Source of the DNA: Alphaproteobacteria bacterium | GTDB taxonomy: Bacteria; Pseudomonadota; Alphaproteobacteria; Bin65 | Direction: 5' to 3' | Length of the DNA stretch: 64,000 nucleotides | Assembly: GCA_965221645.1 (NCBI GenBank) | Contig: OZ244899.1 | Coordinates: 2,581,458-2,645,457 of the forward strand | Shown: positions 41,518 to 55,015 of the stretch, one piece after another | How the letters are laid out: the number at the start of each line of letters is the position of its first letter | Position numbering within the stretch: the first letter of the stretch is position 1 | Position numbers and translations under genes: made by a program | The notes under the pieces: generated by a model | Told to the model about the DNA's origin: nothing | Database searches by the model: none | The model's input: only the letters and a program-made list of their open reading frames with translations

Positions 41518-41832
41518 ATGAGTGACGACATCCGACGGCAACACGACATGGGTGGGCTGGACAAGGGGCCGGTCACGCTGGCCGAGCACGAAATCGAGCC
41601 GTGGGAAAAACGTATCGAGGCGATCATGCGTCTATGCTCGATGCGGGACGATCCGATCCTGACGGTCGACGAGTTGCGTCGCGGAATCGAGGAACTCCCT
41701 GAAGAACTCTACGATACGTTGACGTATTACGAACGATGGATCATGTCGCTGACGAATATTCTGGTGGAGAAGGGTGTCGTCAACCGCGACGAACTGGAGG
41801 AACGCGTCAGGGAACTGGAGGCGACGGCGTGA
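41518..41832 (+). CDS. Nitrile hydratase beta N-terminal half (thiocyanate hydrolase ScnB-like)
   Basis: HDMGG, EPWEKR, DELRRGIE, YYERW. Confidence 0.85.
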   Translation: MSDDIRRQHDMGGLDKGPVTLAEHEIEPWEKRIEAIMRLCSMRDDPILTVDELRRGIEELPEELYDTLTYYERWIMSLTNILVEKGVVNRDELEERVRELEATA

Positions 41833-42146
41833 CCGACGCGCGCTTTCAGGTCGGCGATCCCGTTCTTGTCACGCCCCGCCATCCTGCCGGACGGTGCCAT
41901 ATTCGCACGCCCTTCTATATCCGCGGCAAGATCGGCAGGATCGAGCGGATCTGTGGTGCTTTCAGGAATCCTGAGGATCTGGCTTTCGGAAAGTACGAGA
42001 CCATCCGCATCCCTCTGTACCGTGTTCGCTTCGATCAGGTTGAAGTCTGGGACGATTACGCCGGGAATCCTGACGACACGATCGAAGTCGAGATATTCGA
42101 GCACTGGCTGGAACCGGCCGAAGGAAACTCCACCGATGCCCCATGA
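41829..42146 (+). CDS. Nitrile hydratase beta C-terminal SH3-like half (ScnA-like)
   Basis: RFQVGDPV, HIRTPFYIRGKIG, LYRVRF, VEIFEHWLEPA; GTG start overlaps upstream TGA. Confidence 0.85.
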   Translation: MTDARFQVGDPVLVTPRHPAGRCHIRTPFYIRGKIGRIERICGAFRNPEDLAFGKYETIRIPLYRVRFDQVEVWDDYAGNPDDTIEVEIFEHWLEPAEGNSTDAP

Positions 42147-42774
42147 ACAGCACGAACACGCGCACGATCATTCTCATGCGCCGGTCCAGGCGGACGAACC
42201 GCAGGGCCACTACCAGCGCCTGGCCGATGCGACGCGCAGCCTGCTGATCGAGAAGGGTGTTTTCACCGCCGGCGACATGCGCGCGGTCATCGAGAAAATA
42301 GATGGCCGTTCCCCGGCGCTCGGTGCCAGGATCGTGGTGCGCGCCTGGACGGACCCGGCGTTCAAGAAGCGTCTTCTTGCCCGTGGCAAGCAGACAATGC
42401 TGGAGGAAATGGACATCGACCCGGTGGTGGCCGATATCGTGGTCGTCGAGAATACGCCGGACGTCCACAACGTCGTCGTCTGCACGCTCTGTTCCTGCTA
42501 TCCGGTCTTCATCCTGGGCCGCCCCCCGGACTGGTACAAGAGCCATGCCTATCGCAGCCGGGTGGTGCGGAATCCCCGTGGCGTCCTGCAGGAATTCGGA
42601 ACGACCATCGATCCCGCGCGGGAGGTGCGCGTTCATGATTCGACCGCAGACATGCGCTATCTGGTGATTCCGATGCGGCCTGACGGAACTGACGGCTGGC
42701 CGGAAGACAGGCTCGCCGAGCTTGTCACACGCGACACGATGGTGGGGACAGCGGAAGTTTCCGCCGCAAGTTGA
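42136..42774 (+). CDS. Nitrile hydratase alpha subunit (ScnC-like), Co-type motif
   Basis: GARIVVRAWTDPAFK, VVCTLCSCYP, PPDWYKS, VHDST, MRPDGT. Confidence 0.92.
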   Translation: MPHEQHEHAHDHSHAPVQADEPQGHYQRLADATRSLLIEKGVFTAGDMRAVIEKIDGRSPALGARIVVRAWTDPAFKKRLLARGKQTMLEEMDIDPVVADIVVVENTPDVHNVVVCTLCSCYPVFILGRPPDWYKSHAYRSRVVRNPRGVLQEFGTTIDPAREVRVHDSTADMRYLVIPMRPDGTDGWPEDRLAELVTRDTMVGTAEVSAAS

Positions 42775-42834
42775 TGCCGGAAAACCGGGGCCTTCGCTTG
42801 TGCTCTTGCCGATCGCGTCGGCATGACTTAATGC

Positions 42835-42846
42835 TTGCAAATGCAA
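42835..42846. promoter_or_regulatory. Palindrome TTGCA-AA-TGCAA upstream of LLM gene (candidate operator)
   Basis: Perfect 5-bp inverted repeat 27 nt before the ATG at 42873. Confidence 0.4.
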
Positions 42847-42872
42847 ATATATGACTATCGGGAAGATTCATC

Positions 42873-43949
42873 ATGGAATTCGGCTACTTCACGCTGAGCG
42901 ACAATCATTATCCGAACAATCCGCGGACGCCGAACGATTTTGTCCTGGATATCCGCGAACAGACGATTCTGGCCGACAGGCTGGGTTACCATTCGGCCTG
43001 GATCGGCGAACACCATTTTGATTCCCTTGGCGTCAATTCCCGGCCGGACCTGTTGCTGGCAAGTGTCATCTCCGAAACCGCTCACATCCGCCTCGCGCCT
43101 GCAGTGGCGGTGTTGCCGCTGCACCATCCGGTTCACGTGGCCGAAACCTGGGCGACACTGGATCTGCTGTCCGGAGGGCGAGTCGATTTCGCGGCCGGAC
43201 GTGGTTACGACCGGCGGGAATACGCCCCCTTTGGTTCGGACTTCATGAAATCGGCTGAATATTTCGAAGATTCCATCGAGATCATCTTGAAGGCCTGGGG
43301 CGAGGGTCCGTGGAGCCACGAGAGCGAGTTTCACAGCATTCCCGAGATGGAGATCACGCCCAAGCCGGTGCAGAAGCCAATTCCGTTCTACACGGCGTCT
43401 TTCTCCACCACCTCCCTCGAGATCGCCGCCCGCCACGGCACGAACGTGATCTGGGCCCCGTTTGCCGCCGGCATGGTCTATGGCGGGCTGGACAAGGCGG
43501 TGGAAGCCTATCACGCGGCCTGCGACAGGGAAGGCACTGATCCCGGCCGCAAGATGTGCAGCTATTTCATCTATGTCGACGAAGACGATACCTACGGTCG
43601 GCAGACCCAGATGGACTATTTCAGGCATTGCGCCCTGCCGGCCTTCACCGGCGATCCGGCAAAGCTGCCGCCCACCATGCAATACTTCGTCAAGATCATC
43701 GAGATCCTGGAAGACATGCAGGCGCAGGACCTGTCCGACAAATCCATCCTGCTCGGATCGCCGCAGAAGGTGATCGATACCCTGAAGAAAATCGAGGAAA
43801 CCGGCATGGACGAGGTGATTCTCTACTTCAACGTCGGCAACAAGGACAAGAAGATCGTCGAGGAGCAGATGCACCTCTTCATGAATGAAATCGCTCCCCA
43901 TTTCGATGGCGAGCACAACGCTCGGCGGGCACACTTGCAGGCGGCATGA
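42873..43949 (+). CDS. LLM-class flavin-dependent oxidoreductase
   Basis: GYHSAWIGEHHF, PLHHPVHVAE, GGRVDFAAGRG. Confidence 0.92.
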   Translation: MEFGYFTLSDNHYPNNPRTPNDFVLDIREQTILADRLGYHSAWIGEHHFDSLGVNSRPDLLLASVISETAHIRLAPAVAVLPLHHPVHVAETWATLDLLSGGRVDFAAGRGYDRREYAPFGSDFMKSAEYFEDSIEIILKAWGEGPWSHESEFHSIPEMEITPKPVQKPIPFYTASFSTTSLEIAARHGTNVIWAPFAAGMVYGGLDKAVEAYHAACDREGTDPGRKMCSYFIYVDEDDTYGRQTQMDYFRHCALPAFTGDPAKLPPTMQYFVKIIEILEDMQAQDLSDKSILLGSPQKVIDTLKKIEETGMDEVILYFNVGNKDKKIVEEQMHLFMNEIAPHFDGEHNARRAHLQAA

Positions 43950-44390
43950 GGCGGCGCCGGACGGCGACTGAGACCGGAGACGGCGGTCTGCATGACGAAC
44001 GTGGCTGATGTATTGCGCTGCAGCGACGGCAGATCCTGCTTCAGCAAGACCGACCCCCCGCTTGCGGATGGAATTCCCGGTCATCAGGCCGGCCCGAGCA
44101 GCAATTGCACGCGTCACCGCCGGCCCGCGATGGTTGCCTGGATCTGGTCTTGCGAGAATTCTTGCGATGCGTCAAGGGCCGCGCAAGTCCTTCATGCCTG
44201 ATCGCCCGATCAACTGGAGAAATTGCCGTGCGCCAGGGATATCCCGCCGGGAGACCTGCTCGCGGGCGCGACTCTTGTCTTGTCTCCTGCGCCGATGCCC
44301 GTGCTTGCCGAATTGCCGGTCTCACGGTCAACTGCGGCAGCCGACCGGGCAGGGCAGGCGGCTGTACCGTCGCTTGCGGGTTGGAAGCCG

Positions 44391-44873
44391 ATGACAAGCA
44401 AGGGTACGAATTTTGATCTGACGGCCTACCTGCCTTTCCTCGTCAATCGTACCGGCGTACGGCTTGCCTCAGCATTCTCGCAAGCGATCAGGCATCATGG
44501 CATCAGCCTGCAGATGTGGCGAGTCCTGGCCGCACTGCATCATCAGGACGATCTTCGGATCAGCTACCTGTCCAGCCTGACATCCATTGATATCTCTACC
44601 CTGTCTCGATTGATCGGCAAGTTGGAGGAGTTGGACCTTGCAGTGCGTCGCCGGAACAACGACGAGGACGCAAGGGTGGTTGCCGTCGAACGGACCGCCA
44701 GAGGTCGCGCCATGACAGAGGCCATCATTCCGTTAGCACAACATTATGAGGCTGTGGCGCTGGCTGGGTTCAGCCGACAAGAGGCCGGCGCGCTCAAGAC
44801 GATGCTGGCGCGCGTCCACGCCAATCTTGATCGAACCCGGCTCAAGGCGACTGATTCGGGGACGGCTGCCTAG
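44391..44873 (+). CDS. MarR family regulator
   Basis: YLPFLVNR, WRVLAAL, STLSRLI, EDAR; its TAG stop is the CTAG at the IS630 end. Confidence 0.88.
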   Translation: MTSKGTNFDLTAYLPFLVNRTGVRLASAFSQAIRHHGISLQMWRVLAALHHQDDLRISYLSSLTSIDISTLSRLIGKLEELDLAVRRRNNDEDARVVAVERTARGRAMTEAIIPLAQHYEAVALAGFSRQEAGALKTMLARVHANLDRTRLKATDSGTAA

Positions 44874-45682
44874 TGGTTTGATTCATGCATCCGGTGCCAT
44901 TTCCTGAAGTCTCCGGTGTCCTCCCTTGCACGCCTCGACGAGGTCCTCCGGCTTCCGGCTCCATCGGAACGGACGGGCGTGGTGGGCATCGTGGTGCGCG
45001 ATGCAGCCCTCGATCGCCGTGATGCATTCGTCGAGCGAGTCGAAGACCGCATCCTTCGGCCTCTGCCTCGACAGCCTCGGGAAGAACCCCTCGACGGCGT
45101 CCGTCCGGGACGCCGGGGTCGGGGTGAAGCGGAACGTCCGGTCGGGGCGGCCCTTCTGCCACGTGCGGACCTCGGCCGACCCGTGCGACGAGACGTTGTC
45201 GAGGATGACGTGCACCGGGTTTCCGGGTGCGATCCCCTCGGCGACAGGGTCGGGGAAGGCGAGGAACTCCTGCGAGCGATGCCGGTCGACCCGACCTTGC
45301 CGGTGGCGACGTCGAGGGCCGCGAGCAGGCAGGTCGTGCCGTGCCGCCTGCAGTCGTGCGTCCGCGTCCAGGCATGGCCCGGCTTCACGGGCAGGGGCCT
45401 CTTGCGTCCGCCAGAGCGCCTGTATCTGCGGCTTCTCGTCTACCGAAAGGACGACGGCATGGTCGGGCGGGTCGATGCAGAGGCCGACGACGTCGCGAGA
45501 TGCCCTGAAGGTCCTGACCCGGTGCGGCCCGAGGCCGTTCTCCTTCAGGATGCCGCGGAGACCATCCCCGGCTTCCCCGCCGGCGCCCGCACCGTCCGGT
45601 GTCGGGCATGCGGCGGGGGTGACGCTAGGAGAATGCCATGATCCATACAAGAAGAGAATATTTTGTTTCTGACAGAACACTA
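44871..45682 (-). mobile_element. Degenerate IS630-family element
   Basis: CTAG at both ends (44870-44873, 45680-45683), both ends begin TAGTG; frameshifted transposase pieces VLSVDEKPQIQAL, HVILDNVSSH, HFTPT-like RFTPT, RPFRWS, ending ESNH*. Confidence 0.85.
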
Positions 45683-45737
45683 GGGATATTCAGCTAGCGG
45701 GATTGGAAAATGGCAAGATTCGGCGCGTCCACGCAGT

Positions 45738-46268
45738 CTATTCCAACAAGTCGCCGAAGCTGTCGAGATTGAGGCGAAAGCGATGCTGATCAGACCATTC
45801 ATGCTTCATGCGATCGGCCTCCTCAACGTCAAGCAGATCTTGGCGGATCATCCATACGACCAGATCCTGCGTTGTCACGATGTGGAGCGACGGCGCGAAA
45901 CGACTTGCCAGCCGCTTGGCGACACGGTCATCAATGGCCAACGTGTATCTACGCTGGACTGCGACGGCGATCGCGGAACACTCACCTGCGCCGAGGCGTC
46001 CGGTGGCTGATAGGGAGGCGAAGAGGCGGAGTTCGTCAGCGGCGGCAACGGGAATGAGGGTCAGGGCCCCGGAATCGAGGGCGGAAACGAAGCGTCGCTG
46101 TTGATCGGGATATCGATCCGATACTTCGTTGGCAACATGGTCGGTGGCGAGGAAAGCATGGGAATGGCCGGCGATCAGATCGATCCTGTCGATGCGCAGA
46201 AAGTTGATCAGGACCGAGGCGTCGGTGACGATGATCCCCGACCGATCAAGTTCGGAGGAATCGCTCAA
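45738..46268 (-). CDS. PIN-like domain protein
   Basis: IVTDASVLINF, LGAGECSAIAVA, LAIDDR; overlaps upstream stop by 4 nt. Confidence 0.8.
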   Translation of the reverse strand: MSDSSELDRSGIIVTDASVLINFLRIDRIDLIAGHSHAFLATDHVANEVSDRYPDQQRRFVSALDSGALTLIPVAAADELRLFASLSATGRLGAGECSAIAVAVQRRYTLAIDDRVAKRLASRFAPSLHIVTTQDLVVWMIRQDLLDVEEADRMKHEWSDQHRFRLNLDSFGDLLE

Positions 46269-47497
46269 TTGCCCCGAGCCACTTCGGCAAGACTGAGTAG
46301 GCTGTCGCCGTCGATCCTCAGTATCTTGCCCATTTCGAGGACGCGTCCGCGCGAAATCTCCTCACGACGGTAAGCCTCGATGGCGAGATGGGCAATTTCA
46401 CTTCGGAGTTCGCGATCCCAGTATCTCTTCCTTTCCGGCTCCCCGACCTCGCTGTACATACAGAGAGCCTTCAGGTATTTGCGGCCGAAGTCTTCTTGAT
46501 CCAGGAGGCTCCGACATTCCCTGTTGGAGATATATCGGAGGCTCTTGAGACGGTAGGACGCGGCCTGATAGCTCACTCCGAAGTGGTGGGCGAGCATGGC
46601 GTTGTCCTTGTAGGTAATGCGTTGTGAACGTGCCGGAGGGCGCTGCGCCGCCTCGATGTGCCCCCCGCTCGCGGCGTCGAAGATGGCGTGATCAAGGCGG
46701 CTTGGCAGGCCCTTGTCGAGGGTTCTCAGGAAATCACGAAAGCCGCCCCTGGGCATCAGAAAGGCAGCGGCAAAGGCGTTCGCGCGCTTTTCGATCAGTT
46801 GGGAAGAGTTGTCGGTGCTGGAGATCGTTATGTCTCGATTCCGGTCGAGCAGAGCGTGCGCGTATTCATGCGCGTAGGAAAAGCGCTTTCGGCCTCTGGG
46901 ATGGGTCGAGTTGACAAAAACCGCAAGGCCGATACTGACATGACGGAGAAACAGGCCGGACATTCCATCCGGCAACGCAACCCCGGATGCCCAAATGCCC
47001 TGGGATGCGATGAGTTCGGAGACATCGGCTATGGGGGCGTTCCCCATGCCGAGGCGTCGCCGCTCTTGTTCCGCGGCCTGCTCGCCGTGGGAGATAGCTT
47101 CGCCTGGAGAACGTGGCATACGCGAATCGTATCTCGGCGGGCCGGAGCGGGGCTCAGCGCCGAGGAGACGTTCGAGGATGACGCCTTCCCGGCAAAGATG
47201 GACGCAGCGTGCCACCTGCTCCTGGGTGGCCGGATCCTGCTCAAGGCCGGGAGCCGCGCGATGCAAGGCAACGAGAACGTCGTCGTCTTCCGCTGGGTCC
47301 TGCAGGAAATCGGCGATGCGGCGCTGGTAGAGCTCCGATAGTGCGGTCAGTTCCAGCGTCGAGACCGACCGGTTGCCCGCTTCCAGTTGGGTGATGGCCG
47401 TTCGAGCAAGGCCCAATGCCTGGGCGGCATCCTGCTGACTGAGGCCGCGCGTTACGCGGGCCGTGCGCAATCGGCGTCCCAAGGTCTCCGCATCCAT
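46265..47497 (-). CDS. XRE-HTH fused to ImmA/IrrE-family metallopeptidase
   Basis: LGRRLRTARVTRGLSQQDAAQALGLARTAITQLEAG; RFSYAHEYAH (HExxH), EKRANAFAAAFLMP, HFGVSYQA; GAGG before MDAET. Confidence 0.92.
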   Translation of the reverse strand: MDAETLGRRLRTARVTRGLSQQDAAQALGLARTAITQLEAGNRSVSTLELTALSELYQRRIADFLQDPAEDDDVLVALHRAAPGLEQDPATQEQVARCVHLCREGVILERLLGAEPRSGPPRYDSRMPRSPGEAISHGEQAAEQERRRLGMGNAPIADVSELIASQGIWASGVALPDGMSGLFLRHVSIGLAVFVNSTHPRGRKRFSYAHEYAHALLDRNRDITISSTDNSSQLIEKRANAFAAAFLMPRGGFRDFLRTLDKGLPSRLDHAIFDAASGGHIEAAQRPPARSQRITYKDNAMLAHHFGVSYQAASYRLKSLRYISNRECRSLLDQEDFGRKYLKALCMYSEVGEPERKRYWDRELRSEIAHLAIEAYRREEISRGRVLEMGKILRIDGDSLLSLAEVARGN

Positions 47498-47569
47498 GGT
47501 TCGTTCCTCCCTCAGCAGAAACCGCGACAAGCGGCGTGAGAACGTAACTCTGCTATATCGAACGCCAAA

Positions 47570-47612
47570 TGTCAAAATAAAACATTGACAGATCGATGAT
47601 CGTACATATGAT
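47570..47612 (+). promoter_or_regulatory. Sigma70-type promoter of CBASS operon with palindromic TGTCAA-N9-TTGACA
   Basis: TTGACA (47585-47590)-N16-TATGAT (47607-47612); inverse copy TGTCAA at 47570-47575. Confidence 0.7.
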
Positions 47613-47687
47613 TAGCGCGATATGGCCTTAGAGTGCATACGGCGCGGCTCGGGTGCGGATGTCTCAAGCGGGACGCAGACAACGACG

Positions 47688-48812
47688 ATGAGCGAAGCCC
47701 CTCCACCCCCTCTCAGGGCTCTGAGCCTGAACGGCGGCGGTATGCGCGGCATCTACACAGCGGCCTTTCTGGACCATCTGCTGTCGCAGCACGCCAAACG
47801 CACCGGCTAGGGGCGGCTGGACCTGGGCCGCGGAATCGACCTGATTTGCGGGACAAGCACGGGTGCGATCGTTGCTTGTGCCGTGGCGGTCGGTTGTCCG
47901 CTTGATCGCGTGGTGGATCTCTATCGGCAACACGGGGCGGCGATATTTCCTCATCGCATCACCGGGTACCGGAGCATTGCATACCGCGCCTTCAGTGGAC
48001 GGCGGTTCGTACGGGCGGGAGACCAAGCCCTTCGATCCGCTTTGACCGAGGTGTTGGGCGAAATCACGGTGGCTGATGTATTCGACAAGCGTGGCATTTC
48101 CCTATCGGTGCCCGCGGTCGACATGTCGACGCATCGGTCCTGGGTCTTCAAGCGGACGCCGGTCAGCGGTGTGCGCGACGACGATTTCTCGCTGGTTGAT
48201 GTGTGCATGGCTTCGAGCGCCGCACCGATCTTTCGATCGTTGGCGGACGTTGGCGACCCGAACAGCGATCGAGGCGCCCGCAAGGTCTTCGCGGATGGAG
48301 GTCTGTGGGCAAACAACCCCGTGCTGGTGGCCCTGACTGACGCAATGGCGATGGCTGAAGAGGATCAGCCGATTGAAATATTCTCGTTGGGGACATGCCC
48401 CCGGCCCGTAGGTGAACACATTCGAGGCGATGACGTTCACAGGTCGCTCCTCGGGTGGAGGTTCGGCGCCGATATGGGTCCCCTTTCGATCTCGGCACAG
48501 GAGTTCGCGTACGACAATATCGCGCGGCTCTTGGGAAACGAGCTTTCCAAACAGGGGAGAAGCGTGCGGGCGATCAGGTTTCCCCGGAAGAATGTGCCGG
48601 CAAGCATGATGCCGTTCCTGGCGCTCGACGATACGCGGGAGGAGGCAATGGACCGCCTGGTTGAACAGGCAGGCTCGGATGCCGATTTGACGAAGAGCGC
48701 CTGTGACGATCCGGAATGCCGGGATGGCGGAACGATCAGGTCGCTTCTTGAAAGCCTTACGCCAGCTGACCCCGGCCGGCTTTTGTACAACCAGGGCGTA
48801 CAAGATGGATAG
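47688..48812 (+). pseudogene. capV: Patatin-like phospholipase (CapV-like CBASS effector) interrupted by in-frame TAG at 47808-47810
   Basis: One frame reads SLNGGGMRG...KRTG*GRLDLG...GTSTG...ADGGLWANNP; directly upstream of the CD-NTase. Confidence 0.85.
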
Positions 48813-48827
48813 CACACCAAGTGAACC

Positions 48828-49892
48828 TTGAACTGGAGAGAACAGATGATTGATTGCGGTGCGGACGTGAAGGCGTTTCATGACGAGAAGGTCACGTTGC
48901 CTGGTTCCGAACAGGACAGGATGAGAGAACGAAGAAACTCGAATCGCGACAGATTGAAGAGGAACCTCGAAAAGGACGAGAAGCCTGCGCCGTACGAGCA
49001 TGTGTCCCAAGGAAACTACCAAATGAAGACGACGCTTCGGGACGAGAACAACGACTACGACATTGATGATGGGGCATATTTCAAGAAGGGCATTCTCGTA
49101 GGAGATCGTGGTGCGGAAATGTCGTCGCTTGACACGCGCAAAATGGTCCGAGACGCGATGGATGACGGGAGCTTCAAGACGCCACCGGAGGTCAAGGCGA
49201 ACTGCGTCCGCATCCACTATTCCACAGGGTTCCATGTGGACATTCCAGTCTACCGCCAAATCGTCAATGAGGATACTGACGAAACGTATTATGAACTCGC
49301 GGCCAGTTCCGGATGGAAGCGTTCGGATGCGAGAGATGTGACCAAGTGGTACGAAGAGACGCGCAACGGAACTACGGATGCCGACCAACTCCGGCGCCTG
49401 AATCGGTATCTCAAGAAGCATGCGAGAAGCCGAACGAGCTGGAAGTCCCGCAATCTCAGTGAATTCTCGATCACGGTACTGCTCGGCGAGACTTGCGTTC
49501 TCAGCCCGGATCGGGATGACATAGCCCTGTATCGCACGATGGAGGCGATGAAGAGGCGTCTGGACGGCAATACCGTAATCGACCATCCGGTTACGCCAAA
49601 TGAAACCGTCACGACGGACGACCCTGACGCAAAGGCATGTTTTTTAAGGGAAAAGTTGAAGGAAGCGCTGGACCACCTCGCGCCGGTATACGCGGACGAT
49701 TGCAACAGGGAATCGGCGCTGAAATGCTGGGACAAGGTGTTCGATACAACCTTCTTTTCCGAACAATGCGAAGACGAGAAGGCGAAAAGTGCATCGCTTT
49801 CTGCCCCGGCAATCGGTTCGGCTGCGATACTCGGGTCGACGGTCGCATCTGCCTCTTCGGTGAGTGCGAGGGGCGGCGGACGGCATGCGTGA
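48828..49892 (+). CDS. cGAS/DncV-like nucleotidyltransferase (CD-NTase)
   Basis: SQGNYQMKT..DYDIDDGAYF, FHVDIPVY, WKRSD, C-terminal tail GGGRHA; true start may be MIDC at 48846. Confidence 0.9.
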   Translation: MNWREQMIDCGADVKAFHDEKVTLPGSEQDRMRERRNSNRDRLKRNLEKDEKPAPYEHVSQGNYQMKTTLRDENNDYDIDDGAYFKKGILVGDRGAEMSSLDTRKMVRDAMDDGSFKTPPEVKANCVRIHYSTGFHVDIPVYRQIVNEDTDETYYELAASSGWKRSDARDVTKWYEETRNGTTDADQLRRLNRYLKKHARSRTSWKSRNLSEFSITVLLGETCVLSPDRDDIALYRTMEAMKRRLDGNTVIDHPVTPNETVTTDDPDAKACFLREKLKEALDHLAPVYADDCNRESALKCWDKVFDTTFFSEQCEDEKAKSASLSAPAIGSAAILGSTVASASSVSARGGGRHA

Positions 49893-51738
49893 TGCGACAT
49901 TCCCTGTCGAGGGAATGGTGGAACACGAGCGTGCGATACTCGAGGTAACGCAACGTCTTCGGGAGCATACGGAAGGCACGGCGATCCGCATTGATAACGG
50001 GGCGATCGCAACGATCTATCGGACAAGGAATTTCGCCGATGGATGGCGGATCCCGGTTGCGTTCTCCGACGGCAAGACGCGGAACATCGACCTGCTCGTC
50101 TCGCTCTTTTTTCCGCGCTGCGCGCCCCGGGCGGCTCTCGTCGACCGTCCGGAGTACCTGATCTGGCCGCATATCGAGCGCGACGGCGTTCTGTGTCTTC
50201 TCCCCAATTCCAGCGAGATCGATCCGACGACGCCGGGTGAGGTGGCGCTCGCGATCCTGAACCGGGCCGTTCGACTGGTGGAAGAACTCATCGAGAGTTC
50301 GATTGTCGAGCGCGACTTCAAGCAGGAGTTTCTCACCTACTGGTTCTACGCGCGTCAAGAGGCCGGCAAGAACGTAGTAATTCTGTGCGAACCGGTGGGT
50401 CCGTCCCGAGTGCTCAAGCGCTTCACGTGGGAGGGGAAGGTTTACGTTGGCGAGAATGTGCCATCGCTTCGGCAGTGGACGGACCGGAGGTTTGGAGCGC
50501 GAGCGGCGGCAAAGGCTGCGAAGACCGCGAAGCCGGCGGCGTTCATTTGGTTGCAGGAGCCGCCCCTACCGAACGAGTATCCCGAGCACGGATCCGACAT
50601 CCTGGCGCTGGTGTCCGGGCGGGGCGAAGATGCGGTCGAAATCCTCGCCGAAGCGGCCTCAGCTGGTGATGACGAGTGTCTGGTGCTTCTCGGGGCGGAT
50701 GGGCGTGGCGGCGCGGGTGTGGTCGCGGTCCGCATTGACCGCAACCGTAGTCAGAGGACGGGAAACCCGCGAGCCAGGGACAAGATACACCGCGGCTTTC
50801 GCGCCGGCCACCTTCCGCCGGCAGTCGCCATGGAACCGACCTATGGGCGTAACGAGATCCGACGTGCTGAGGTCGAAAGGGCTGATGCGGCGTGGGTACA
50901 TGGGAGAGGACAAGAGGCTCGTAGTCGTATCCTGCTCGAAAAGTCTGTCACGGTCTTCGGCTGCGGCTCGGTCGGGTCGTTCGTGGCCCAAAGTCTGGCG
51001 CGAGCGGGTGTCGGAAGGCTGTGCCTAGTAGATTTCGATAAATTGAGCTGGGCGAACGTGGGGCGCCATGCGCTTGGCGCAGATTCTGTTGGGCATAAGA
51101 AAGCAGAGGCGCTGGCGGAGAGATTGCAGCGTGAGTTTCCGCATCTTCAGTTTGAAGGGCAGAACTCGACGATCGAAGCCGTTCTGTTTGCCGACAGAGC
51201 GCGGCTGCTCTGCAGCGACCTGATTGTGTGCTTGACGGGGAATTGGGTAGCCGAGTCTGGGTTGGACGACTGGCACGTGAAATCTGGTCTCGACAATGCG
51301 ATTCTGTACGGTTGGACGGAGGATCATGCCGTTGCCGGGTCAGCGGTCGTAATCGCGCCCAAGGGTAGGTGCCTCGCGTGCGGAATAGATCGCACAGGGA
51401 CGCCGCTGTTGACTGCGGTGGATTGGCCGGATGGACGCGAGGCGCGTACGGAGCCTTCCTGCGCGGATCATTACCAGCCGTATGGCGCGATCGAACTGTC
51501 CTATATCACCACGATGATTGCGAACACGGTGATCGACGAGCTGCTCAACGCGTCGGAGACGTCCTACCGAAGAATTTGGGTTTCTGGAAGGCAGGCCGAA
51601 TATGGGGGAACGATCGGCAAGACGTTTATGGAGGCTCTCGGCGGTAGAGAAATGGAGAACGGGATCGTGACTCTCGCCTGGGGGAACCAGGCATGTGCGT
51701 CATGCAAGGAGCGCGGAAGAAAGACAACACACGAATGA
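49885..51738 (+). CDS. cap2: CBASS Cap2 (E2-like + E1/ThiF-like)
   Basis: WPHIERDGVLCL (E2 Cys); GCGSVGS, VDFDKL..NVGRH, CLAC, EPSCADHYQPYG, C-terminal CASC. Confidence 0.88.
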   Translation: MRDATFPVEGMVEHERAILEVTQRLREHTEGTAIRIDNGAIATIYRTRNFADGWRIPVAFSDGKTRNIDLLVSLFFPRCAPRAALVDRPEYLIWPHIERDGVLCLLPNSSEIDPTTPGEVALAILNRAVRLVEELIESSIVERDFKQEFLTYWFYARQEAGKNVVILCEPVGPSRVLKRFTWEGKVYVGENVPSLRQWTDRRFGARAAAKAAKTAKPAAFIWLQEPPLPNEYPEHGSDILALVSGRGEDAVEILAEAASAGDDECLVLLGADGRGGAGVVAVRIDRNRSQRTGNPRARDKIHRGFRAGHLPPAVAMEPTYGRNEIRRAEVERADAAWVHGRGQEARSRILLEKSVTVFGCGSVGSFVAQSLARAGVGRLCLVDFDKLSWANVGRHALGADSVGHKKAEALAERLQREFPHLQFEGQNSTIEAVLFADRARLLCSDLIVCLTGNWVAESGLDDWHVKSGLDNAILYGWTEDHAVAGSAVVIAPKGRCLACGIDRTGTPLLTAVDWPDGREARTEPSCADHYQPYGAIELSYITTMIANTVIDELLNASETSYRRIWVSGRQAEYGGTIGKTFMEALGGREMENGIVTLAWGNQACASCKERGRKTTHE

Positions 51739-51834
51739 ACTGCGCCTTGTCGACAGGGCAAGCTTGCGGGAATGTGTGCTCGTCCATCTGACTTGCACTT
51801 GTCGAATCGAGGAAGGCAATGGCCATTGAAGGGC

Positions 51835-51939
51835 TCAATACTCGCCTTTCTCAAACAGCGCGCGAATCTCGCCTTCGCACGCCGCGAAAGACTCTCGGCC
51901 CACGTCGAAAATTGCTTTCAGTTTTTCTACATCGCTTTC
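51835..51939 (-). pseudogene. Orphan C-terminal fragment cut by IS630
   Basis: Open frame ESDVEKLKAIFDVGRESFAACEGEIRALFEKGEY* begins exactly at the IS end; family unknown. Confidence 0.35.
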
Positions 51940-52806
51940 TATTGTCCTGATTCCCAAGTTTTGCTGATTTTCTTTTGGCATTCTGCGGTATCCAGGGTAC
52001 GCAGGCAGAAGCGTTTGATGGTAGCGAGGATGTCGTCTGCCGACCTGGTCCAGCGAAAGGGTCTGGGGTTGGCGTTGACGGTGTCGATATGGTCTCGGAT
52101 GGCCTGTTCAAGTTCCCGGGTCGCGCGATGGACCCCGCGCCGGAGCTGCTTTTCGGTCAGGGCGGCGAAGAAGCGCTCGACCTGGCCAGGCCGCATGGGC
52201 AGCAACGGCTGGGTGCGGTCGCGCGCCTGGATCTGGCTCTTTTCGTCGACGCAGAGCACCAGCGTGCGTTCGGGCGGGTCGAGACAGAGGCCTGTGATGT
52301 CGCGTACCTTGTCGACGAACAGCGGGTCCGCCGACAGCCTGAAGGTCTCCGAGCGATGCGGCTGCAGGCCGAAGGCTTGCCAGATCCGGTGGATCGTCGA
52401 CGGCGCAGGCTCCAATGCGTGGCCCCGGGCGGCGTCTCTTCCAAGGTGCGGGCGATGATCTCCGCGATCTCCTCGTCGCCGATCTGGCGCGGCGCCCCGG
52501 AACGCGGCGCGTCGCAGAGCCCGTCGAGCCGGTGCTCGGCAAACCGCCGGCGCCATTTGCCGACCGTCGTCGGGTCGCTCCCCACAATCTCCACGATCGC
52601 CTTCTTCTCCAGACCTTCCGCAGCCGCCAGAACGATCCGGGCACGTCGCGCCAGACCCCGGGCCGTCTTGCGCCGGCCCGCCAGACCTTCCAACGCGCGC
52701 CGCGCCGCTTCCGACAAGCTGATCGCAACCGCTACCCTGCTCAACAGTCATCCCTCCAATACAACCAAACATACTTGTTCCAGCAAACCTCTCGATCAGG
52801 ATACTA
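51940..52806 (-). mobile_element. Degenerate IS630-family element (frameshift plus internal deletion)
   Basis: TA-terminated ends sharing TCCTGAT; N-terminal HTH RARIVL..VGKWRRRF..PRSG, then VLCVDEKSQIQA joined almost directly to VERFFAALT..RPFRWT. Confidence 0.88.
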
Positions 52807-52807
52807 T

Positions 52808-53963
52808 GGAACCTCTGATTAATTGGCCGTATCCGGGGATGATGTGACTGTCTGGATGGTCCGGCTTGGAGGGTTCATGGAGCAAGCGACGTTTGCGGAT
52901 CTGGCGCACGATGCGAAGAAGCGCAGGACGCGCCGTGAGTTGTTTCTTGCGAAGATGGACGGGCTGATTCCGTGGGACCGGCTGGCGCGGCGGATCGCGC
53001 CGTTTTACCCGAAGTCGGGTCGTGGCCGGCGGCCGTATCCCTTGCGCACGATGCTGCGGGTTCACGGCGTCCGGTTGTTCTGCAACCTGAGCGATCCGGG
53101 GATGGAGGACCTGCTCTGCGAGGTGGGGTCGGTGCGCCGGTTTGCGGCTGACGGGTCTCTTGCCGGACGAGACGACGATCCTGCACTTCCGGCCCCTGCT
53201 GGAGAGGCACGGCCTGGGCGAGGCGCTGTTCGGGGAGATCAACGCGCCCCTGGCTTCGCCGGGCCACCGCCTGAAGCGCGGGACGATCGTGGACGCGAGC
53301 ATCATCGACGCGCCGGGCTCGACCAGGAACAAGGCTGGGGAGCGGGATCCGGAGATGCGCCAGACGAAGAAGGGCAACCAATGGCACTTCGGGATGAAGG
53401 CGCCCATCGGCGTGGCCTCGGAGACGGGCCTGACGCACAGCCTGGAGACGACCTCGGCGAACGAGGCCGACGTGGCCACGGCGCACGCGGTGCTGCACGG
53501 CGGGGAGGAGCGGGCGTGGGCAAGCGCGAGGAGAACCGGGACATGGACGGGGACTGGCAGGGGGCGATGAAGCGCGGCAAGCGGCGGCAGCTGGATCCAT
53601 CAGGGCCGGAGGCGGCGGCGGAGCGGCGCAAGGGTTCGGTGCGGGCCAGGGTGGAGCACCCGTTCGGCTACGCCAAGGTGCGCTGCCGGGGCCTGGCGAA
53701 GAACACGCAACGCATCGCGCTGCTGCTCGGCTTCTCCAATCTGCTCATCGCCGGCCGCCATGCGCCCGCATGGCGCCGCGCCCGCAATCCGTCCGCGATC
53801 CGCAAAGGGCCGCGATGGGGCACCCGAAACCGCCCGTGGTGGCCCGTTCCGAGCAACCCTTGTAGCCCAGGCGCATATCGCCGAGGCGCGTCATGCCGAC
53901 CGAAGCCAAAGGATCGAAACCAACCGCGACTTGGCGGCAAATGCTCCCTTGTTCAGACCTTCC
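52808..53963 (+). mobile_element. Degenerate IS5-family element
   Basis: Ends GGAACCTCTGATTAA and (reverse complement) GGAAGGTCTGAACAA; frameshifted transposase RTRRELFL, GRRPYPL, IVDASII, WHFGMKA, VEHPF. Confidence 0.88.
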
Positions 53964-53983: not shown

Positions 53984-55015
53984 TTACGCGTGCGCGGTCT
54001 CGAATCCTTCCAGGAAGGAGAACACGTTTTTTCCCAGGTCCGGCACGTTGTAGCCGCCTTCCTGGACTAACACCGTAGGCAACTCCAGGTTGCCGATGGC
54101 GCAGGCGATGCGATTGAAGCCGGGAGTGGTCAGGCTGATTCCCTGCAACGGATCCTTCTCGTAGCCGTCAACACCCAGTGCCACCAAAAGAATGTCAGGG
54201 CTCCACGCCGCGATCCGGTTCAGAGCCGTGTCAAGCGACGAAAGATAGCTGTTGTCGCCGGTGTTGCGGGCCAGCGGCAGGTTCAGATGGCAGCCGACGC
54301 CATCCGCCGCGCCGCGCTCGTGCCCATGACCGGCGAAGAACGGGTAAAAATCCGTCGGGTCGCAATGCAGCGAGACCGTCAGAACGTCCGGACGGCGGTA
54401 AAATATGCCTTGCGTGCCGTTACCGGCGTGAACATCCACATCCAGGATTGCCGGTCGCTTGCCTTGACGCACGGCGTACTGGGCGGCAATCGCGATATTG
54501 TTCAGGAAGCAGAATCCTCCCGCCATGTCGACGTAGGCATGGTGTCCCGGCGGTCGGCAGAGGGCATAGGCCGAACGGGCACCATCCAGCACCAGCTTCG
54601 TCGCATGCAGTGCCGTATTGGCGCTGTCACACGCGGCTTCCCAGGACATCGGGCCGATCGGCGTCGAGAGATCAGTCGTGTGATAGCCGATCTGTCCGAT
54701 CAGGTTTTCCGGTCTTGTCGCCATGTGGCGACCGGGGTGAACATTCGGAAAGACCTCGTCGCTGTCTTCACAGATGGTTCTCCATCGGTCATGCACTGTC
54801 GAAAGGAACTCCAGATATTCCGCAGAGTGGATGTCTGCTCGCGGTCCTGGCCCGAAGTCCGCCGGTGCAGTGATGACGCCACCTTGTGCCTTGAGTTCCG
54901 CGACGATCGCTTCGGCGCGCGCCGGCATTTCTGGATGCGTCTGAAAGGTCCCGGCCTTGAAGTAGAGTTTCGGATCGTGTCGTGCATGGCCCGGGTGGAA
55001 GACAATCGGAAGCAT
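53984..55015 (-). CDS. Histone-deacetylase-family amidohydrolase (acetylpolyamine amidohydrolase-like)
   Basis: HPEMPAR, RPPGHHA, GFCFLNN, LDVDVHAGNGTQ, VQEGGY. Confidence 0.92.
   Translation of the reverse strand: MLPIVFHPGHARHDPKLYFKAGTFQTHPEMPARAEAIVAELKAQGGVITAPADFGPGPRADIHSAEYLEFLSTVHDRWRTICEDSDEVFPNVHPGRHMATRPENLIGQIGYHTTDLSTPIGPMSWEAACDSANTALHATKLVLDGARSAYALCRPPGHHAYVDMAGGFCFLNNIAIAAQYAVRQGKRPAILDVDVHAGNGTQGIFYRRPDVLTVSLHCDPTDFYPFFAGHGHERGAADGVGCHLNLPLARNTGDNSYLSSLDTALNRIAAWSPDILLVALGVDGYEKDPLQGISLTTPGFNRIACAIGNLELPTVLVQEGGYNVPDLGKNVFSFLEGFETAHA

What the first reader, a model, noticed from the sequence alone, without database searches (positions are those of the whole stretch)
45738..47612. 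HTH-ImmA/IrrE peptidase fusion plus PIN gene transcribed divergently from CBASS: candidate regulatory and effector module
Seen: an XRE-HTH/HExxH metallopeptidase fusion coupled (4-nt overlap) to a PIN-like gene lies head-to-head with the CBASS operon, with about 190 bp between start codons. Established: CBASS can be controlled by the CapH repressor and the IrrE-family peptidase CapP, encoded as two divergent genes; HTH-peptidase/PIN pairs occur as TA-like modules. Inference: this is a single-chain, possibly self-cleaving CapH/CapP analogue that co-controls CBASS and a PIN nuclease, an arrangement I do not recognise as described.
Basis: partly seen in the sequence, partly recalled or inferred. 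Interest (0 to 1): 0.75.

Follow-up and report, generated by a model that had tools for sequence, protein, structure and literature searches.

The report
Self-cleaving repressor–antitoxin with PIN beside CBASS
A fused DNA-binding/protease protein and its PIN nuclease partner form a portable toxin–antitoxin-like cassette that sits back-to-back with anti-phage CBASS operons in many bacteria and probably switches them on after DNA damage; parts of this idea are already published.

Summary
A 410-aa XRE-HTH/M78 (HExxH) fusion (46265-47497, true ATG 47497) overlaps by 4 nt (TTGA) a 176-aa PIN gene (45738-46268). It lies 190 bp head-to-head with capV–CD-NTase–cap2.

In 80 related loci from other species, the PIN follows the fusion in 72 of 76. 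A CD-NTase lies on the divergent side in 17 of 76 and never downstream. These belong to at least six unrelated CBASS architectures. Another 11 loci keep only CBASS fragments there. Other cargoes include SIR2/pAgo, AbiE and TIR genes.

The intergenic region carries conserved back-to-back promoters. A palindrome (consensus GTTCGAT-N-ATCGAAC) sits in the spacer of the cargo-facing promoter.

The fusion is a collinear homologue of M. tuberculosis VapB52 (PDB 9vzy), an ssDNA-activated self-cleaving antitoxin of a PIN toxin. It has no GAF domain and no cysteine switch.

Best reading: one self-cleaving protein both represses the divergent defence operon and neutralises the PIN. None of this is tested experimentally.

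CapH-CapP fusions beside CBASS, a vapC-like gene plus fusion beside DISARM, and VapBC52 are all published.

In this window capV carries a real nonsense allele (Q41*).

The parts
45738..46268 (-). PIN-domain gene (176 aa, COG2405/DUF3368 type), putative toxin/effector RNase. TTG start overlaps the fusion's TGA stop.
   Evidence: ORF. AF2 model pLDDT 87.5. Foldseek top hits are VapC/PIN toxins. D16, E48, E96, D113/D114 and D135 are conserved in 24 homologues. PADLOC PDC-S70 3.9e-11. Homologues carry PF11848. Present directly downstream of the fusion in 72 of 76 loci.
46265..47497 (-). XRE-HTH / M78 (ImmA/IrrE) metallopeptidase fusion, 410 aa, VapB52/RmrA-like. Putative self-cleaving repressor-antitoxin.
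   Evidence: Pfam HTH_3 and Peptidase_M78. PADLOC RmrA 3e-25, capP 1.7e-17, capH 5.4e-8. Start fixed by alignment A1. Profile vs PDB 9vzy_A (VapB52) E 8.4e-15, collinear.
47303..47497 (-). N-terminal XRE helix-turn-helix domain (residues 1-65).
   Evidence: Pfam HTH_3 residues 10-63. This is the only well-predicted part of the AF2 model (pLDDT 84-93). Near-invariant across homologues.
47258..47266 (-). Codons L78-H79-R80 in the HTH-peptidase linker, the candidate autocleavage site.
   Evidence: In the profile alignment H79-R80 aligns with the F-R of VapB52, the proposed cleavage motif (PMC13273310). L78 and R80 are invariant and position 79 is H or Y. Cleavage is inferred, not shown.
46856..46870 (-). 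HExxH zinc-binding motif (H210-E211-Y-A-H214).
   Evidence: Invariant in 20 homologues, with invariant E236 as third ligand. No Cys between H214 and E236, so no cysteine switch.
47547..47575 (-). Promoter of the fusion-PIN operon: -35 TTGACA (47575..47570), weak -10 CAGAGT (47552..47547), with operator half-site GTTCGAT (plus strand ATCGAAC, 47557-47563) in the spacer.
   Evidence: Read from the sequence. The TTGACA and the ATGTTCGAT half-site are conserved at a fixed distance (74-89 nt) from the ATG in most of the 58 anchored loci. Half-site with at most 1 mismatch in 36 of 71 loci.
47585..47612 (+). Cargo-facing (capV) sigma-70-like promoter: TTGACA (47585-90), 16-nt spacer, TATGAT (47607-12). 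The spacer holds the palindromic operator GATCGATGATCGTAC (47591-47605).
   Evidence: The only promoter-like site found in 45600-47800, matching 11 of 12. The palindrome has a unique exact match in the window. The consensus palindrome GTTCGATNATCGAAC is matched with at most 3 mismatches in 47 of 71 loci, against 0.7% of shuffles. It lies in the leftward promoter spacer in most loci with intact CBASS.
47688..48812 (+). capV, the patatin-like phospholipase effector. In this window it is a nonsense allele (Q41*, TAG at 47808-47810), upstream of the GTSTG catalytic serine.
   Evidence: Translation. PADLOC phospholipase effector 2e-93. Relatives L001-L003 and L081 have CAG. The T allele is present in contigs of three independent runs and the C allele in a fourth.
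48828..49892 (+). CD-NTase (cyclic oligonucleotide synthase).
   Evidence: Pfam DncV-like_NTFase 1.9e-18. PADLOC Cyclase PDLC00783 6e-128.
49864..51738 (+). Cap2 (E2-E1 fusion). No Cap3/JAB gene follows.
   Evidence: Pfam Prok-E2_B and ThiF. PADLOC E1-E2 4e-200. No JAB ORF after cap2 in L001 either.
45680..51826 (.). The 6.15-kb conserved block (PIN, fusion, capV, CD-NTase, cap2) shared with locus L001. It is flanked by IS630-like transposase fragments.
   Evidence: blastn gives 91% identity over 6154 bp to L001, and the PIN-side boundary at 45680 is shared with L002-L004. DDE_3 fragment at 44883-45680. Short-read contigs of about 6.4 kb break just outside the block.

Best explanation
The two genes form a VapBC52-type toxin-antitoxin-like cassette whose antitoxin doubles as the repressor of the divergent defence operon.

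**Resting state (inferred).**
- The fusion protein binds through its N-terminal XRE HTH to GTTCGAT-type sites. One is a palindrome in the spacer of the capV-facing promoter (47591-47605). The other is a half-site in its own promoter (47557-47563). Both promoters are kept low.
- By analogy with VapB52, the fusion also holds the PIN nuclease inactive.

**Trigger (inferred by homology).**
- ssDNA from DNA damage or phage replication activates the M78 peptidase.
- The peptidase cuts its own chain in the HTH-peptidase linker, at L78-H79-R80, the counterpart of the VapB52 FR motif.
- This detaches the HTH, de-represses the CBASS operon and frees the PIN RNase.

**Shown here.** Gene anatomy, domain homology, PIN fold and catalytic residues, tight pair conservation, one-sided association with diverse CBASS and other defence operons, and conserved operator/promoter geometry.

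**Inferred.** DNA binding, repression, ssDNA sensing, autocleavage, PIN toxicity and PIN neutralisation.

In this window's haplotype capV is Q41*, so the PIN is probably the only remaining killing output.
For: **Pair linkage.**
- 4-nt overlap.
- The PIN lies directly downstream in 72 of 76 loci.

**Homology.**
- The A1 profile hits VapB52 (9vzy_A) at E 8.4e-15, collinearly over residues 9-257 and 298-325.
- VapB52 is an ssDNA-activated self-cleaving antitoxin of a PIN toxin (PMC13273310).
- PADLOC RmrA 3e-25, capP 1.7e-17, capH 5.4e-8.
- The PIN fold and acidic residues are intact.

**Association with defence cargo.**
- A CD-NTase HMM finds cyclases in 17 loci. All are on the divergent strand, between -87 and -3419 of the fusion start, and none lies downstream.
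- These belong to unrelated operon types:
  - capV-CDN-cap2;
  - patatin-CDN-E2;
  - CDN-HORMA-TRIP13-NucC;
  - a SAVED effector with CDN and cap2;
  - a CDN-first variant.
- Other cargoes are SIR2/short pAgo, AbiEi, a TIR protein and an E2-E1-JAB operon.

**Operator and promoters.**
- The core TGTTCGATnATCGAAC..TGTCAA-N9-TTGACA..ATGTTCGAT is conserved at a fixed distance from the ATG.
- The palindrome is matched with at most 3 mismatches in 47 of 71 loci, against 0.7% of shuffles.
- In the window it fills the spacer of an 11-of-12 sigma-70 promoter aimed at capV.
- The cargo-facing promoter scores at least 9 of 12 in 13 of 15 loci with intact CBASS, against 20 of 54 others (Fisher p 0.0009). 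The regulator's own promoter persists in all groups.

**Precedent.** CapH+CapP repress CBASS and respond to ssDNA. Fifteen CBASS systems have CapH-CapP fusions, and a DISARM system has a vapC-like gene plus a fusion.
Against: - There is no experimental evidence for any step in this family.
- The association is clade-structured. Each cargo type goes with one clade of the fusion, so the number of independent events is perhaps 6-10, and the statistics are inflated by shared ancestry.
- About 40 of 76 loci show no recognisable defence gene on the divergent side, so the cassette can exist without cargo.
- The fusion lacks the GAF domain that CapP and IrrE carry, and it lacks the cysteine switch of VapB52.
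- The AlphaFold2 model of the fusion is poor (pLDDT 49.9), so the C-terminal PIN-blocking helices are only guessed.
- The sequence similarity to VapB52 does not extend detectably to its toxin-binding CTD.
- The fusion's own -10 hexamer in the window is weak (CAGAGT).
- In this window capV is a null allele, so control of CBASS cannot matter for immunity in this strain.
Confidence: 0.55

Rival explanations
1. The pair is an autonomous toxin-antitoxin or stand-alone defence module (VapBC52- or RosmerTA-like). It regulates only itself. It travels with defence islands and stabilises them by addiction, and CBASS expression does not depend on it.
For: - The pair outlives its neighbours. At least 11 loci keep only fragments of capV, patatin or CD-NTase next to a mostly intact pair.
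- In the source sample a second haplotype (L082) has lost most of the CBASS while keeping an identical fusion.
- About half of the loci have no recognisable defence cargo.
- PADLOC's best match is the RosmerTA antitoxin RmrA, not CapP.
- VapBC52 in M. tuberculosis is described as a TA system with no role in CBASS.
Against: - Simple island co-localisation does not explain why all 17 CD-NTases lie on the divergent side, with the first cargo gene starting 75-390 bp from the fusion start, and none downstream.
- It does not explain why a conserved palindrome sits inside a cargo-facing promoter.
- It does not explain why that promoter decays when the cargo is lost while the pair's own promoter stays.
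Confidence: 0.27
2. The fusion is purely a CapH-CapP-type transcriptional regulator. The PIN is not a toxin held by the fusion but a co-induced accessory effector, or a non-toxic RNA-processing factor, controlled only at the level of transcription.
For: - The PIN is co-transcribed behind the regulator and would be induced on de-repression.
- No detectable similarity to the VapB52 toxin-binding C-terminal domain.
- PADLOC lists the PIN family as a single-gene defence candidate, PDC-S70.
Against: - A 4-nt overlap and 72 of 76 co-occurrence are typical of type II TA pairs.
- The antitoxin-first gene order matches Rv2515c-Rv2514c.
- The pair is retained after cargo loss, which suggests addiction.
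- The fusion's C-terminal helical region (residues 340-410) is strongly conserved without a known regulatory role.
Confidence: 0.13
3. The head-to-head position beside CBASS in this window is a chance product of IS-mediated rearrangement in a defence island.
For: IS630-like fragments flank the block on both sides.
Against: The same geometry recurs in L001 (91% DNA identity over the whole 6.15-kb block) and with unrelated CBASS operons in many other species.
Confidence: 0.02

Closest known systems
VapBC52 (Rv2515c/Rv2514c) of Mycobacterium tuberculosis (NAR 2026, PMC13273310; PDB 9vzy)
   Same: - The antitoxin has an N-terminal XRE HTH, an M78 HExxH peptidase, an internal HTH and a helical C-terminus.
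- A PIN toxin gene lies directly downstream.
- The window fusion matches it collinearly (E 8.4e-15).
- An aromatic-Arg motif sits in the linker at the aligned position.
   Different: - Only distant sequence similarity.
- No cysteine-switch Cys between the zinc ligands.
- The PIN belongs to the COG2405/DUF3368 branch and shows no sequence match to any PDB chain.
- The family here sits divergently beside defence operons with a conserved cargo-facing promoter. In the passages I retrieved, I saw no such role reported for VapBC52.
CapH + CapP regulators of CBASS, including CapH-CapP fusions (Lau et al. 2022, bioRxiv 10.1101/2022.04.27.489752)
   Same: - XRE HTH repressor plus IrrE-family peptidase, encoded upstream of and divergent from CBASS and other defence operons.
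- ssDNA/DNA-damage logic.
- Fifteen fused versions are listed.
- One DISARM locus is drawn with a vapC-like gene plus a fusion.
   Different: - No GAF domain: the capP model matches only its peptidase part, positions 5-124 of 242.
- Single chain, so cleavage would be in cis.
- An obligatory PIN partner.
- None of the six cultured or named genera I searched for (Thiocystis, Amorphus, Sneathiella, Jannaschia, Blastomonas, Contendobacter) appears as a fusion in their Table S1. Jannaschia seosinensis is listed there, but with separate capH and capP genes.
RosmerTA (RmrT/RmrA) anti-phage toxin-antitoxin (Millman et al. 2022; NetFlax, PMC10440598)
   Same: The antitoxin carries a Zn-peptidase (ImmA/IrrE) with an HTH. 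RmrA is the best PADLOC match (3e-25). The family shows the mobile, promiscuous partner swapping typical of defence systems.
   Different: The toxin here is a PIN that matches PDC-S70, not any RmrT model. The RosmerTA passages I retrieved say nothing about control of a neighbouring operon.
ImmR/ImmA (ICEBs1) and DdrO/IrrE (Deinococcus)
   Same: An XRE repressor is inactivated by an M78 peptidase after DNA damage, de-repressing a target regulon. (Named from established knowledge and.)
   Different: They are two separate proteins, have no toxin partner, and their targets are a mobile element or repair genes, not immune operons.
Xre-COG2856-PIN 'three-component TA' predictions (Makarova 2009, PMC2701414; Matelska 2017, PMC5499597)
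   Same: Exactly this gene pair type, an HTH-DUF955 fusion upstream of a COG2405/DUF3368 PIN, was predicted as a TA-like regulatory system.
   Different: These were predictions only. The passages I retrieved do not mention a link to CBASS or to a divergent cargo promoter.
CapK/CapS regulators and the derived VapKSC toxin-antitoxin (EMBO J 2026, PMC13373217)
   Same: An ssDNA-sensing regulator module of immune operons is also found wired to a VapC-like PIN toxin.
   Different: The chemistry is unrelated (kinase/STAS). There the regulator role and the TA role are in separate systems. Here both seem combined in one cassette.

Membership tests
VapBC52-type HTH-M78 antitoxin / PIN toxin | Antitoxin architecture: N-terminal XRE HTH, M78 HExxH peptidase, internal HTH, helical C-terminal domain | tested here: met
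   Profile A1 vs 9vzy_A gives E 8.4e-15, collinear over 9-257 and 298-325. 9vzy is confirmed as VapBC52. Predicted secondary structure has helices at 357-407 (low confidence).
VapBC52-type HTH-M78 antitoxin / PIN toxin | PIN/VapC gene directly downstream in the same operon, with intact acidic active site | tested here: met
   4-nt overlap. Present in 72 of 76 loci. Foldseek hits VapC toxins at probability 1.0. D16, E48, D113/D114 and D135 are conserved.
VapBC52-type HTH-M78 antitoxin / PIN toxin | Aromatic-Arg ('FR') autocleavage motif in the NTD-peptidase linker | tested here: inconclusive
   H79-R80 aligns with F-R of VapB52. R80 and L78 are invariant and position 79 is H or Y. Cleavage itself was not tested.
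VapBC52-type HTH-M78 antitoxin / PIN toxin | Cysteine-switch loop between the HExxH and the third zinc ligand | tested here: not met
   No Cys between H214 and E236 in any of 20 homologues.
VapBC52-type HTH-M78 antitoxin / PIN toxin | Toxin arrests growth, antitoxin neutralises it, ssDNA triggers self-cleavage | not testable with these tools
   Needs expression and biochemical assays.
CapH + CapP (CBASS-associated regulators) | XRE HTH repressor domain | tested here: met
   Pfam HTH_3 1.6e-9. PADLOC capH 5.4e-8, residues 3-89.
CapH + CapP (CBASS-associated regulators) | IrrE/M78 zinc peptidase with HExxH | tested here: met
   Pfam Peptidase_M78 2.8e-19. PADLOC capP 1.7e-17. Motif invariant.
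CapH + CapP (CBASS-associated regulators) | CapP C-terminal GAF domain | tested here: not met
   The capP model is matched only at positions 5-124 of 242. There is no GAF Pfam hit. The C-terminal third is predicted all-helical (low confidence).
CapH + CapP (CBASS-associated regulators) | Encoded upstream of and on the opposite strand to the defence operon | tested here: met
   In the window there are 190 bp between starts. All 17 CD-NTase loci have the cyclase on the divergent side.
CapH + CapP (CBASS-associated regulators) | Repressor binds the operon promoter and is cleaved by the peptidase on ssDNA or DNA damage | not testable with these tools
   Only indirect support: a conserved palindrome in the cargo promoter spacer.
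RosmerTA | RmrA antitoxin with Zn-peptidase (and HTH) | tested here: met
   PADLOC RmrA models, best 3e-25 over residues 5-255.
RosmerTA | RmrT toxin partner | tested here: not met
   The PIN matches only PDC-S70 models in PADLOC and no RmrT model.
Type II CBASS (the neighbouring operon) | CD-NTase, effector, Cap2 (E1/E2) and Cap3 (JAB) | tested here: not met
   CD-NTase, patatin and Cap2 are present. No JAB gene follows cap2 here or in L001. capV is Q41* in this window.

The most novel reading that the evidence does not exclude
The cassette is a portable, cargo-agnostic 'sentinel' with two outputs.

- One ssDNA-triggered self-cleaving protein de-represses whichever defence operon is plugged in at its left-hand promoter. 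The cargoes seen are several CBASS types, short pAgo/SIR2, AbiE, a TIR protein and an E2-E1-JAB system.
- The same cleavage releases a PIN toxin as a built-in second line.
- Addiction to the PIN keeps the cassette in the genome after the costly cargo has decayed. This leaves a ready-made regulated landing pad for new defence genes.

This dual-output and cargo-turnover behaviour has not been shown for CapH/CapP or for VapBC52.
Probability: 0.35. Interest if true: 0.7.

Novelty: new member of a known kind. Interest (0 to 1): 0.5.

Why it matters
**Biological significance, if the dual role holds.** This family would link two fields that have been treated separately: type II toxin-antitoxin modules and transcriptional control of abortive-infection immune systems. 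A single DNA-damage sensor would gate an expensive suicide pathway (CBASS). It would also carry its own back-up nuclease and its own addiction mechanism.

**What the survey adds.**
- A natural series of intact, decaying and lost cargoes next to a conserved regulator.
- A polymorphic capV nonsense allele and a deletion haplotype within one sponge-associated population.

Both are useful material for asking how costly CBASS effectors are purged while their regulators persist.

**Limits.** The concept is largely anticipated by published work on CapH-CapP fusions, the vapC-like gene beside DISARM, and VapBC52. The gain is a well-defined, widespread and testable family rather than a new principle.

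Tried and rejected
- **Pfam and NCBIfam on the PIN:** no hit even at E 10. The family assignment rests on precomputed PF11848 in homologues, PADLOC PDC-S70 and the fold search.
- **PDB sequence search with the PIN profile:** no match.
- **AlphaFold2 of the fusion:** the 20-sequence alignment gave pLDDT 49.9.
- **Greedy ORF calling in the high-GC loci:** it often picked the wrong strand. I replaced it with targeted tblastn, first-divergent-ORF extraction and a local CD-NTase HMM.
- **Exact search for TGTCAA-N10-TTGACA in the loci:** nothing found, because the real spacing is 9 nt and variable. The anchored alignment was used instead.
- **Cap3:** looked for after cap2 and absent here and in L001.
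- **IS630 fragments:** I considered that the two flanking fragments are halves of one element split by the block. I did not pursue this. The upstream copy looks internally deleted and the two ORFs are not complementary halves.
- **Assembly error at the capV stop:** rejected. Three independent runs carry the T allele.
- **RNA evidence:** the listed metatranscriptome runs hold none of the sequence, so no transcription data could be obtained.
- **Class D 405-aa protein:** it is not recognised as a CD-NTase by PADLOC, Pfam or my HMM, so class D was not counted as CBASS.
Full report
**1. What is in the window**

On the minus strand there are two overlapping ORFs.
- The upstream ORF is listed as 46265-47575. 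An alignment of 20 homologues (68-91% identical) shows that all begin at the MDA/MEA corresponding to ATG 47497, so the protein has 410 aa.
- It carries an XRE HTH (Pfam HTH_3 1.6e-9, residues 10-63) and an M78/IrrE peptidase domain (2.8e-19, residues 192-261).
- H210-E211-x-x-H214 and E236 are invariant.
- The downstream ORF (45738-46268, 176 aa) starts with a TTG that overlaps the TGA stop of the fusion (aaTTGAgc).
- Pfam and NCBIfam do not recognise the downstream ORF. Its homologues carry PF11848/DUF3368 and it matches the PADLOC candidate family PDC-S70 (3.9e-11).
- An AlphaFold2 model (pLDDT 87.5) is most similar to VapC/PIN toxins in the PDB (5h4g, 3zvk, 5x3t and others; probability 1.00, TM up to 0.67 on the target).
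- The PIN acidic residues D16, E48, E96, D113, D114 and D135 are conserved in 24 homologues.

On the plus strand, 190 bp from the fusion start, begins a CBASS operon:
- capV, a patatin (47688-48812);
- a CD-NTase (48828-49892);
- cap2, an E2/E1 fusion (49864-51738).

No cap3 follows.

**2.

- capV has an in-frame TAG at 47808-47810 (Q41*), upstream of the GTSTG catalytic serine.
- Relatives L001-L003 read CAG there.
- The source assembly is an ENA metagenome contig of 4.0 Mb, fetched as locus L081. It is about 99.3-99.9% identical to the window and also reads CAG.
- The stop is not an assembly error. Contigs of three independent public runs carry the T allele, and a fourth carries the C allele together with the same three linked differences.
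- A second haplotype in the same sample (L082) has a 10-bp deletion in capV. It has also lost window 49261-53432, which holds the 3' part of the cyclase gene, cap2 and flanking DNA.
- L082 keeps a fusion protein identical to the window's. Its PIN gene has one base difference and no indel.
- The organisms are from sponge metagenomes.

**3. Related loci**

A scan of one genome per species found 282 genomes with a relative of the fusion, and the best 80 were fetched. Hits with 51-92% identity to the window fusion come from Alpha- and Gammaproteobacteria, Spirochaetia, Latescibacterota, Gemmatimonadota, Binatia and Nitrospinaceae. This implies horizontal spread.

*The PIN.* It lies directly downstream on the same strand in 72 of 76 loci with enough sequence.

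*Recurrent divergent operons* (tblastn and PADLOC/Pfam annotation):

| Class | Operon | Loci |
|---|---|---|
| A | capV-CDN-cap2, as in the window | L001 intact; L002 and L003 keep capV fragments of 132 and 61 aa |
| B | patatin-CDN-E2, type II short | L006, L007, L010, L012, L014, L017, L034, L056 (L012 lacks an E2 hit; L014 and L017 have partial E2); fragments only in L011, L013, L016, L018, L020, L021, L052, L058; L009 cut by contig end |
| C | CDN-HORMA-TRIP13-NucC, type III | L026, L027, L029; L023 degraded |
| Variants | TRIP13-like AAA ATPase first | L041 (the CD-NTase lies further upstream in both L041 and L043) |
| Variants | SAVED effector, CDN, cap2-like | L064 |
| Variants | CDN first, then patatin | L079 |
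| D | a 405-aa unknown protein plus an E2-E1-JAB fusion | L039, L054; fragments in L035-L038 |

*Non-CBASS neighbours.* These include SIR2/short-pAgo (L022, 1.9e-117), AbiEi (L008), a 1275-aa TIR protein (L057), an AAA_5 ATPase (L048), a Ser/Thr kinase (L059), PDC-M36A (L049) and a GDSL lipase (L030-L032, L040, L063).

*Side specificity.* A local HMM built from nine of the cyclases found CD-NTase ORFs in 17 loci. All are on the divergent strand, between -87 and -3419 of the fusion start. None lies downstream of the PIN or anywhere else in the 10-kb flanks.

*Caveat.* Each cargo class goes with its own clade of the fusion, at roughly 87-92%, 59-81%, 69-71% and 58-68% identity to the window. The number of independent associations is therefore perhaps six to ten, not 28.

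**4. The intergenic region**

- Upstream regions anchored on the fusion's -35 hexamer align in 58 of 71 loci, and most of these show a conserved core 74-89 nt from the ATG. The core reads taTGTTCGATtaTCgAACtgTcAA-N9-TTGACAtt.tATGTTCGATat.
- TTGACA is the -35 of the fusion promoter. TGTCAA is the reverse complement of a second TTGACA that points the other way.
- In the window that second promoter is TTGACA (47585-90), a 16-nt spacer, then TATGAT (47607-12). It matches 11 of 12 and is the only promoter-like site between 45600 and 47800.
- Its spacer is the palindrome GATCGATGATCGTAC (47591-47605), which has a single exact match in the window.
- The consensus palindrome GTTCGATNATCGAAC is matched with at most 3 mismatches in 47 of 71 loci, against 0.7% of shuffled sequences.
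- In most loci with an intact CBASS the palindrome lies in the spacer of a good cargo-facing promoter.
- That promoter scores at least 9 of 12 in 13 of 15 intact-CBASS loci but in only 20 of 54 others (Fisher p 0.0009, not corrected for relatedness).
- The regulator's own promoter is kept in 14 of 15 and 42 of 54 loci (p 0.27).
- DNA comparison agrees. L004, which has no CBASS, keeps homology to the window exactly up to 47700, and L005 only up to 47510.

This geometry is what one expects of a repressor that controls both divergent promoters, and of a cargo promoter that decays once the cargo is gone.

**5. What the proteins are related to**

- *Fusion.* PADLOC's best match is RmrA, the Zn-peptidase antitoxin of RosmerTA (3e-25 over residues 5-255). 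The capP model matches only through its peptidase part (1.7e-17, model positions 5-124 of 242). capH matches the HTH (5.4e-8).
- *Closest solved structure.* This is 9vzy_A (profile E 8.4e-15; collinear over 9-257 and 298-325). The data-availability statement of PMC13273310 identifies 9vzy as the VapBC52 complex of M. tuberculosis.
- *What that paper shows.* VapB52 has an HTH NTD, a peptidase plus HTH middle domain and a helical CTD. It binds the PIN toxin VapC52 with 1:2 stoichiometry. [quoted passage not shown]
- *Comparison.* In the profile alignment the window's H79-R80 aligns with that F-R. R80 and L78 are invariant and position 79 is H or Y. The cysteine switch of VapB52 and some CapPs is absent, as is a GAF domain.
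- *Fusion model.* The AlphaFold2 model was too poor (pLDDT 49.9) to say more.

**6. What is already published**

- Lau et al. 2022 showed that CapH represses CBASS and is cleaved by CapP on ssDNA or DNA damage.
- They list 15 CBASS systems with an apparent CapH-CapP fusion, mostly type II short with a phospholipase in Actinobacteria.
- They depict a DISARM locus with a vapC-like gene plus a CapH-CapP fusion.
- Makarova et al. 2009 and Matelska et al. 2017 predicted HTH-COG2856 fusions with PIN (COG2405/DUF3368) as three-component TA-like regulators.
- RosmerTA is a validated defence TA with a Zn-peptidase antitoxin.
- A parallel case is CapK/CapS, an ssDNA-sensing regulator pair that was also co-opted to control a VapC-like toxin, VapKSC.
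- I searched Lau's Table S1 for six cultured or named genera of the present family. None appears there as a fusion.

**7. Most likely mechanism**

The fusion is a single-chain repressor-antitoxin.
- At rest it occupies the GTTCGAT-type sites in both divergent promoters and holds the PIN inactive.
- ssDNA produced by DNA damage or phage replication activates the peptidase.
- The peptidase cuts the linker after the HTH.
- The defence operon and the cassette itself are then de-repressed, and the PIN is released.

I put about 0.55 on this dual role.

The main rival, at about 0.27, is that the pair is an autonomous TA or defence module that merely travels with defence islands and stabilises them. 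The many loci where the pair outlives its cargo favour this rival. The strict side-specificity and the operator inside the cargo promoter argue against it.

A pure-regulator reading, with the PIN as a co-induced effector, gets about 0.13. Chance adjacency is excluded.

In this particular window the CBASS effector is a null allele, so only the PIN output is likely to be functional.

**8. Verdict**

It is a new member of kinds that are already described (CapH-CapP fusion regulators; VapBC52- and Rosmer-type HTH-peptidase/PIN modules), not an undescribed arrangement.

What is new here:
- the definition of a widespread, highly conserved family with a common operator;
- its association with many different defence cargoes;
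- the evidence that the cassette persists while the cargo decays.

Interest is moderate (0.5).

Noticed in passing
window 47808-47810: capV carries a premature TAG (Q41*; CAG in relatives). The allele is real and polymorphic. Contigs of three public runs have T, and a fourth has C together with three linked differences (46795, 48920, 49211).
   Followed up: yes
L082 (second contig of the same sample) vs window 48246-48255 and 49261-53432: A co-occurring haplotype has a 10-bp deletion in capV and a 4.2-kb deletion removing the 3' part of the cyclase gene, cap2 and flanking DNA. Its fusion protein is identical to the window's, and its PIN gene shows one base difference and no indel. This is independent inactivation of the same CBASS.
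   Followed up: partly
window 44883-45680 (-) and 51939-52772 (-): Degenerate IS630-type transposase fragments flank the 6.15-kb block. Most differences between the window and L081 fall in these flanks (74 of 78). Short-read contigs of about 6.4 kb end just outside the block, as expected for repeats.
   Followed up: partly
L039:6402-9925 (-), also L054; fragments in L035-L038: A different divergent cargo: a 405-aa protein with no confident family match, followed by a 769-aa E2 (Prok-E2_A)-E1 (ThiF)-JAB fusion. It looks like a ubiquitin-like conjugation defence operon without a recognisable cyclase.
   Followed up: partly
L022:8800-9912 (-): Here the cassette faces a SIR2 domain protein that matches the N-terminal part of a PADLOC short-pAgo model (1.9e-117). 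This is a non-CBASS cargo behind the same operator-bearing intergenic region.
   Followed up: partly
window 49864-51826; L001:1888-3830: This CBASS has cap2 (E1/E2) but no cap3 (JAB) gene, both here and in the closest relative. The conserved block ends about 90 bp after cap2.
   Followed up: partly
L023, L024, L028, L030-L034, L036, L040, L063, L069: The fusion is 54-72% identical across distant phyla (Binatia, Spirochaetia, Latescibacterota, Gemmatimonadota, Nitrospinaceae). Many of these genomes are metagenome-assembled with similarly formatted isolate names, which suggests horizontal spread of the cassette within a shared habitat. The habitat of these genomes was not checked.
   Followed up: no
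window 42599-42613 and 55269-55283: There are two further one-mismatch matches to the relaxed operator pattern GWWCGATNATCGWWC. In total 3 matches were found against 0.31 expected. Both extra sites lie where long ORFs are listed (the 302-aa ORF 41866-42774 and the 402-aa ORF 55014-56222). They may be chance.
   Followed up: no
window 41518-43949: The flanking host genes are a nitrile hydratase cluster (beta and alpha subunits), a luciferase-like monooxygenase and a MarR regulator (about 44390-44873). The island sits between these and a histone-deacetylase-family gene (53984-55063). The same flanks occur in L082.
   Followed up: no
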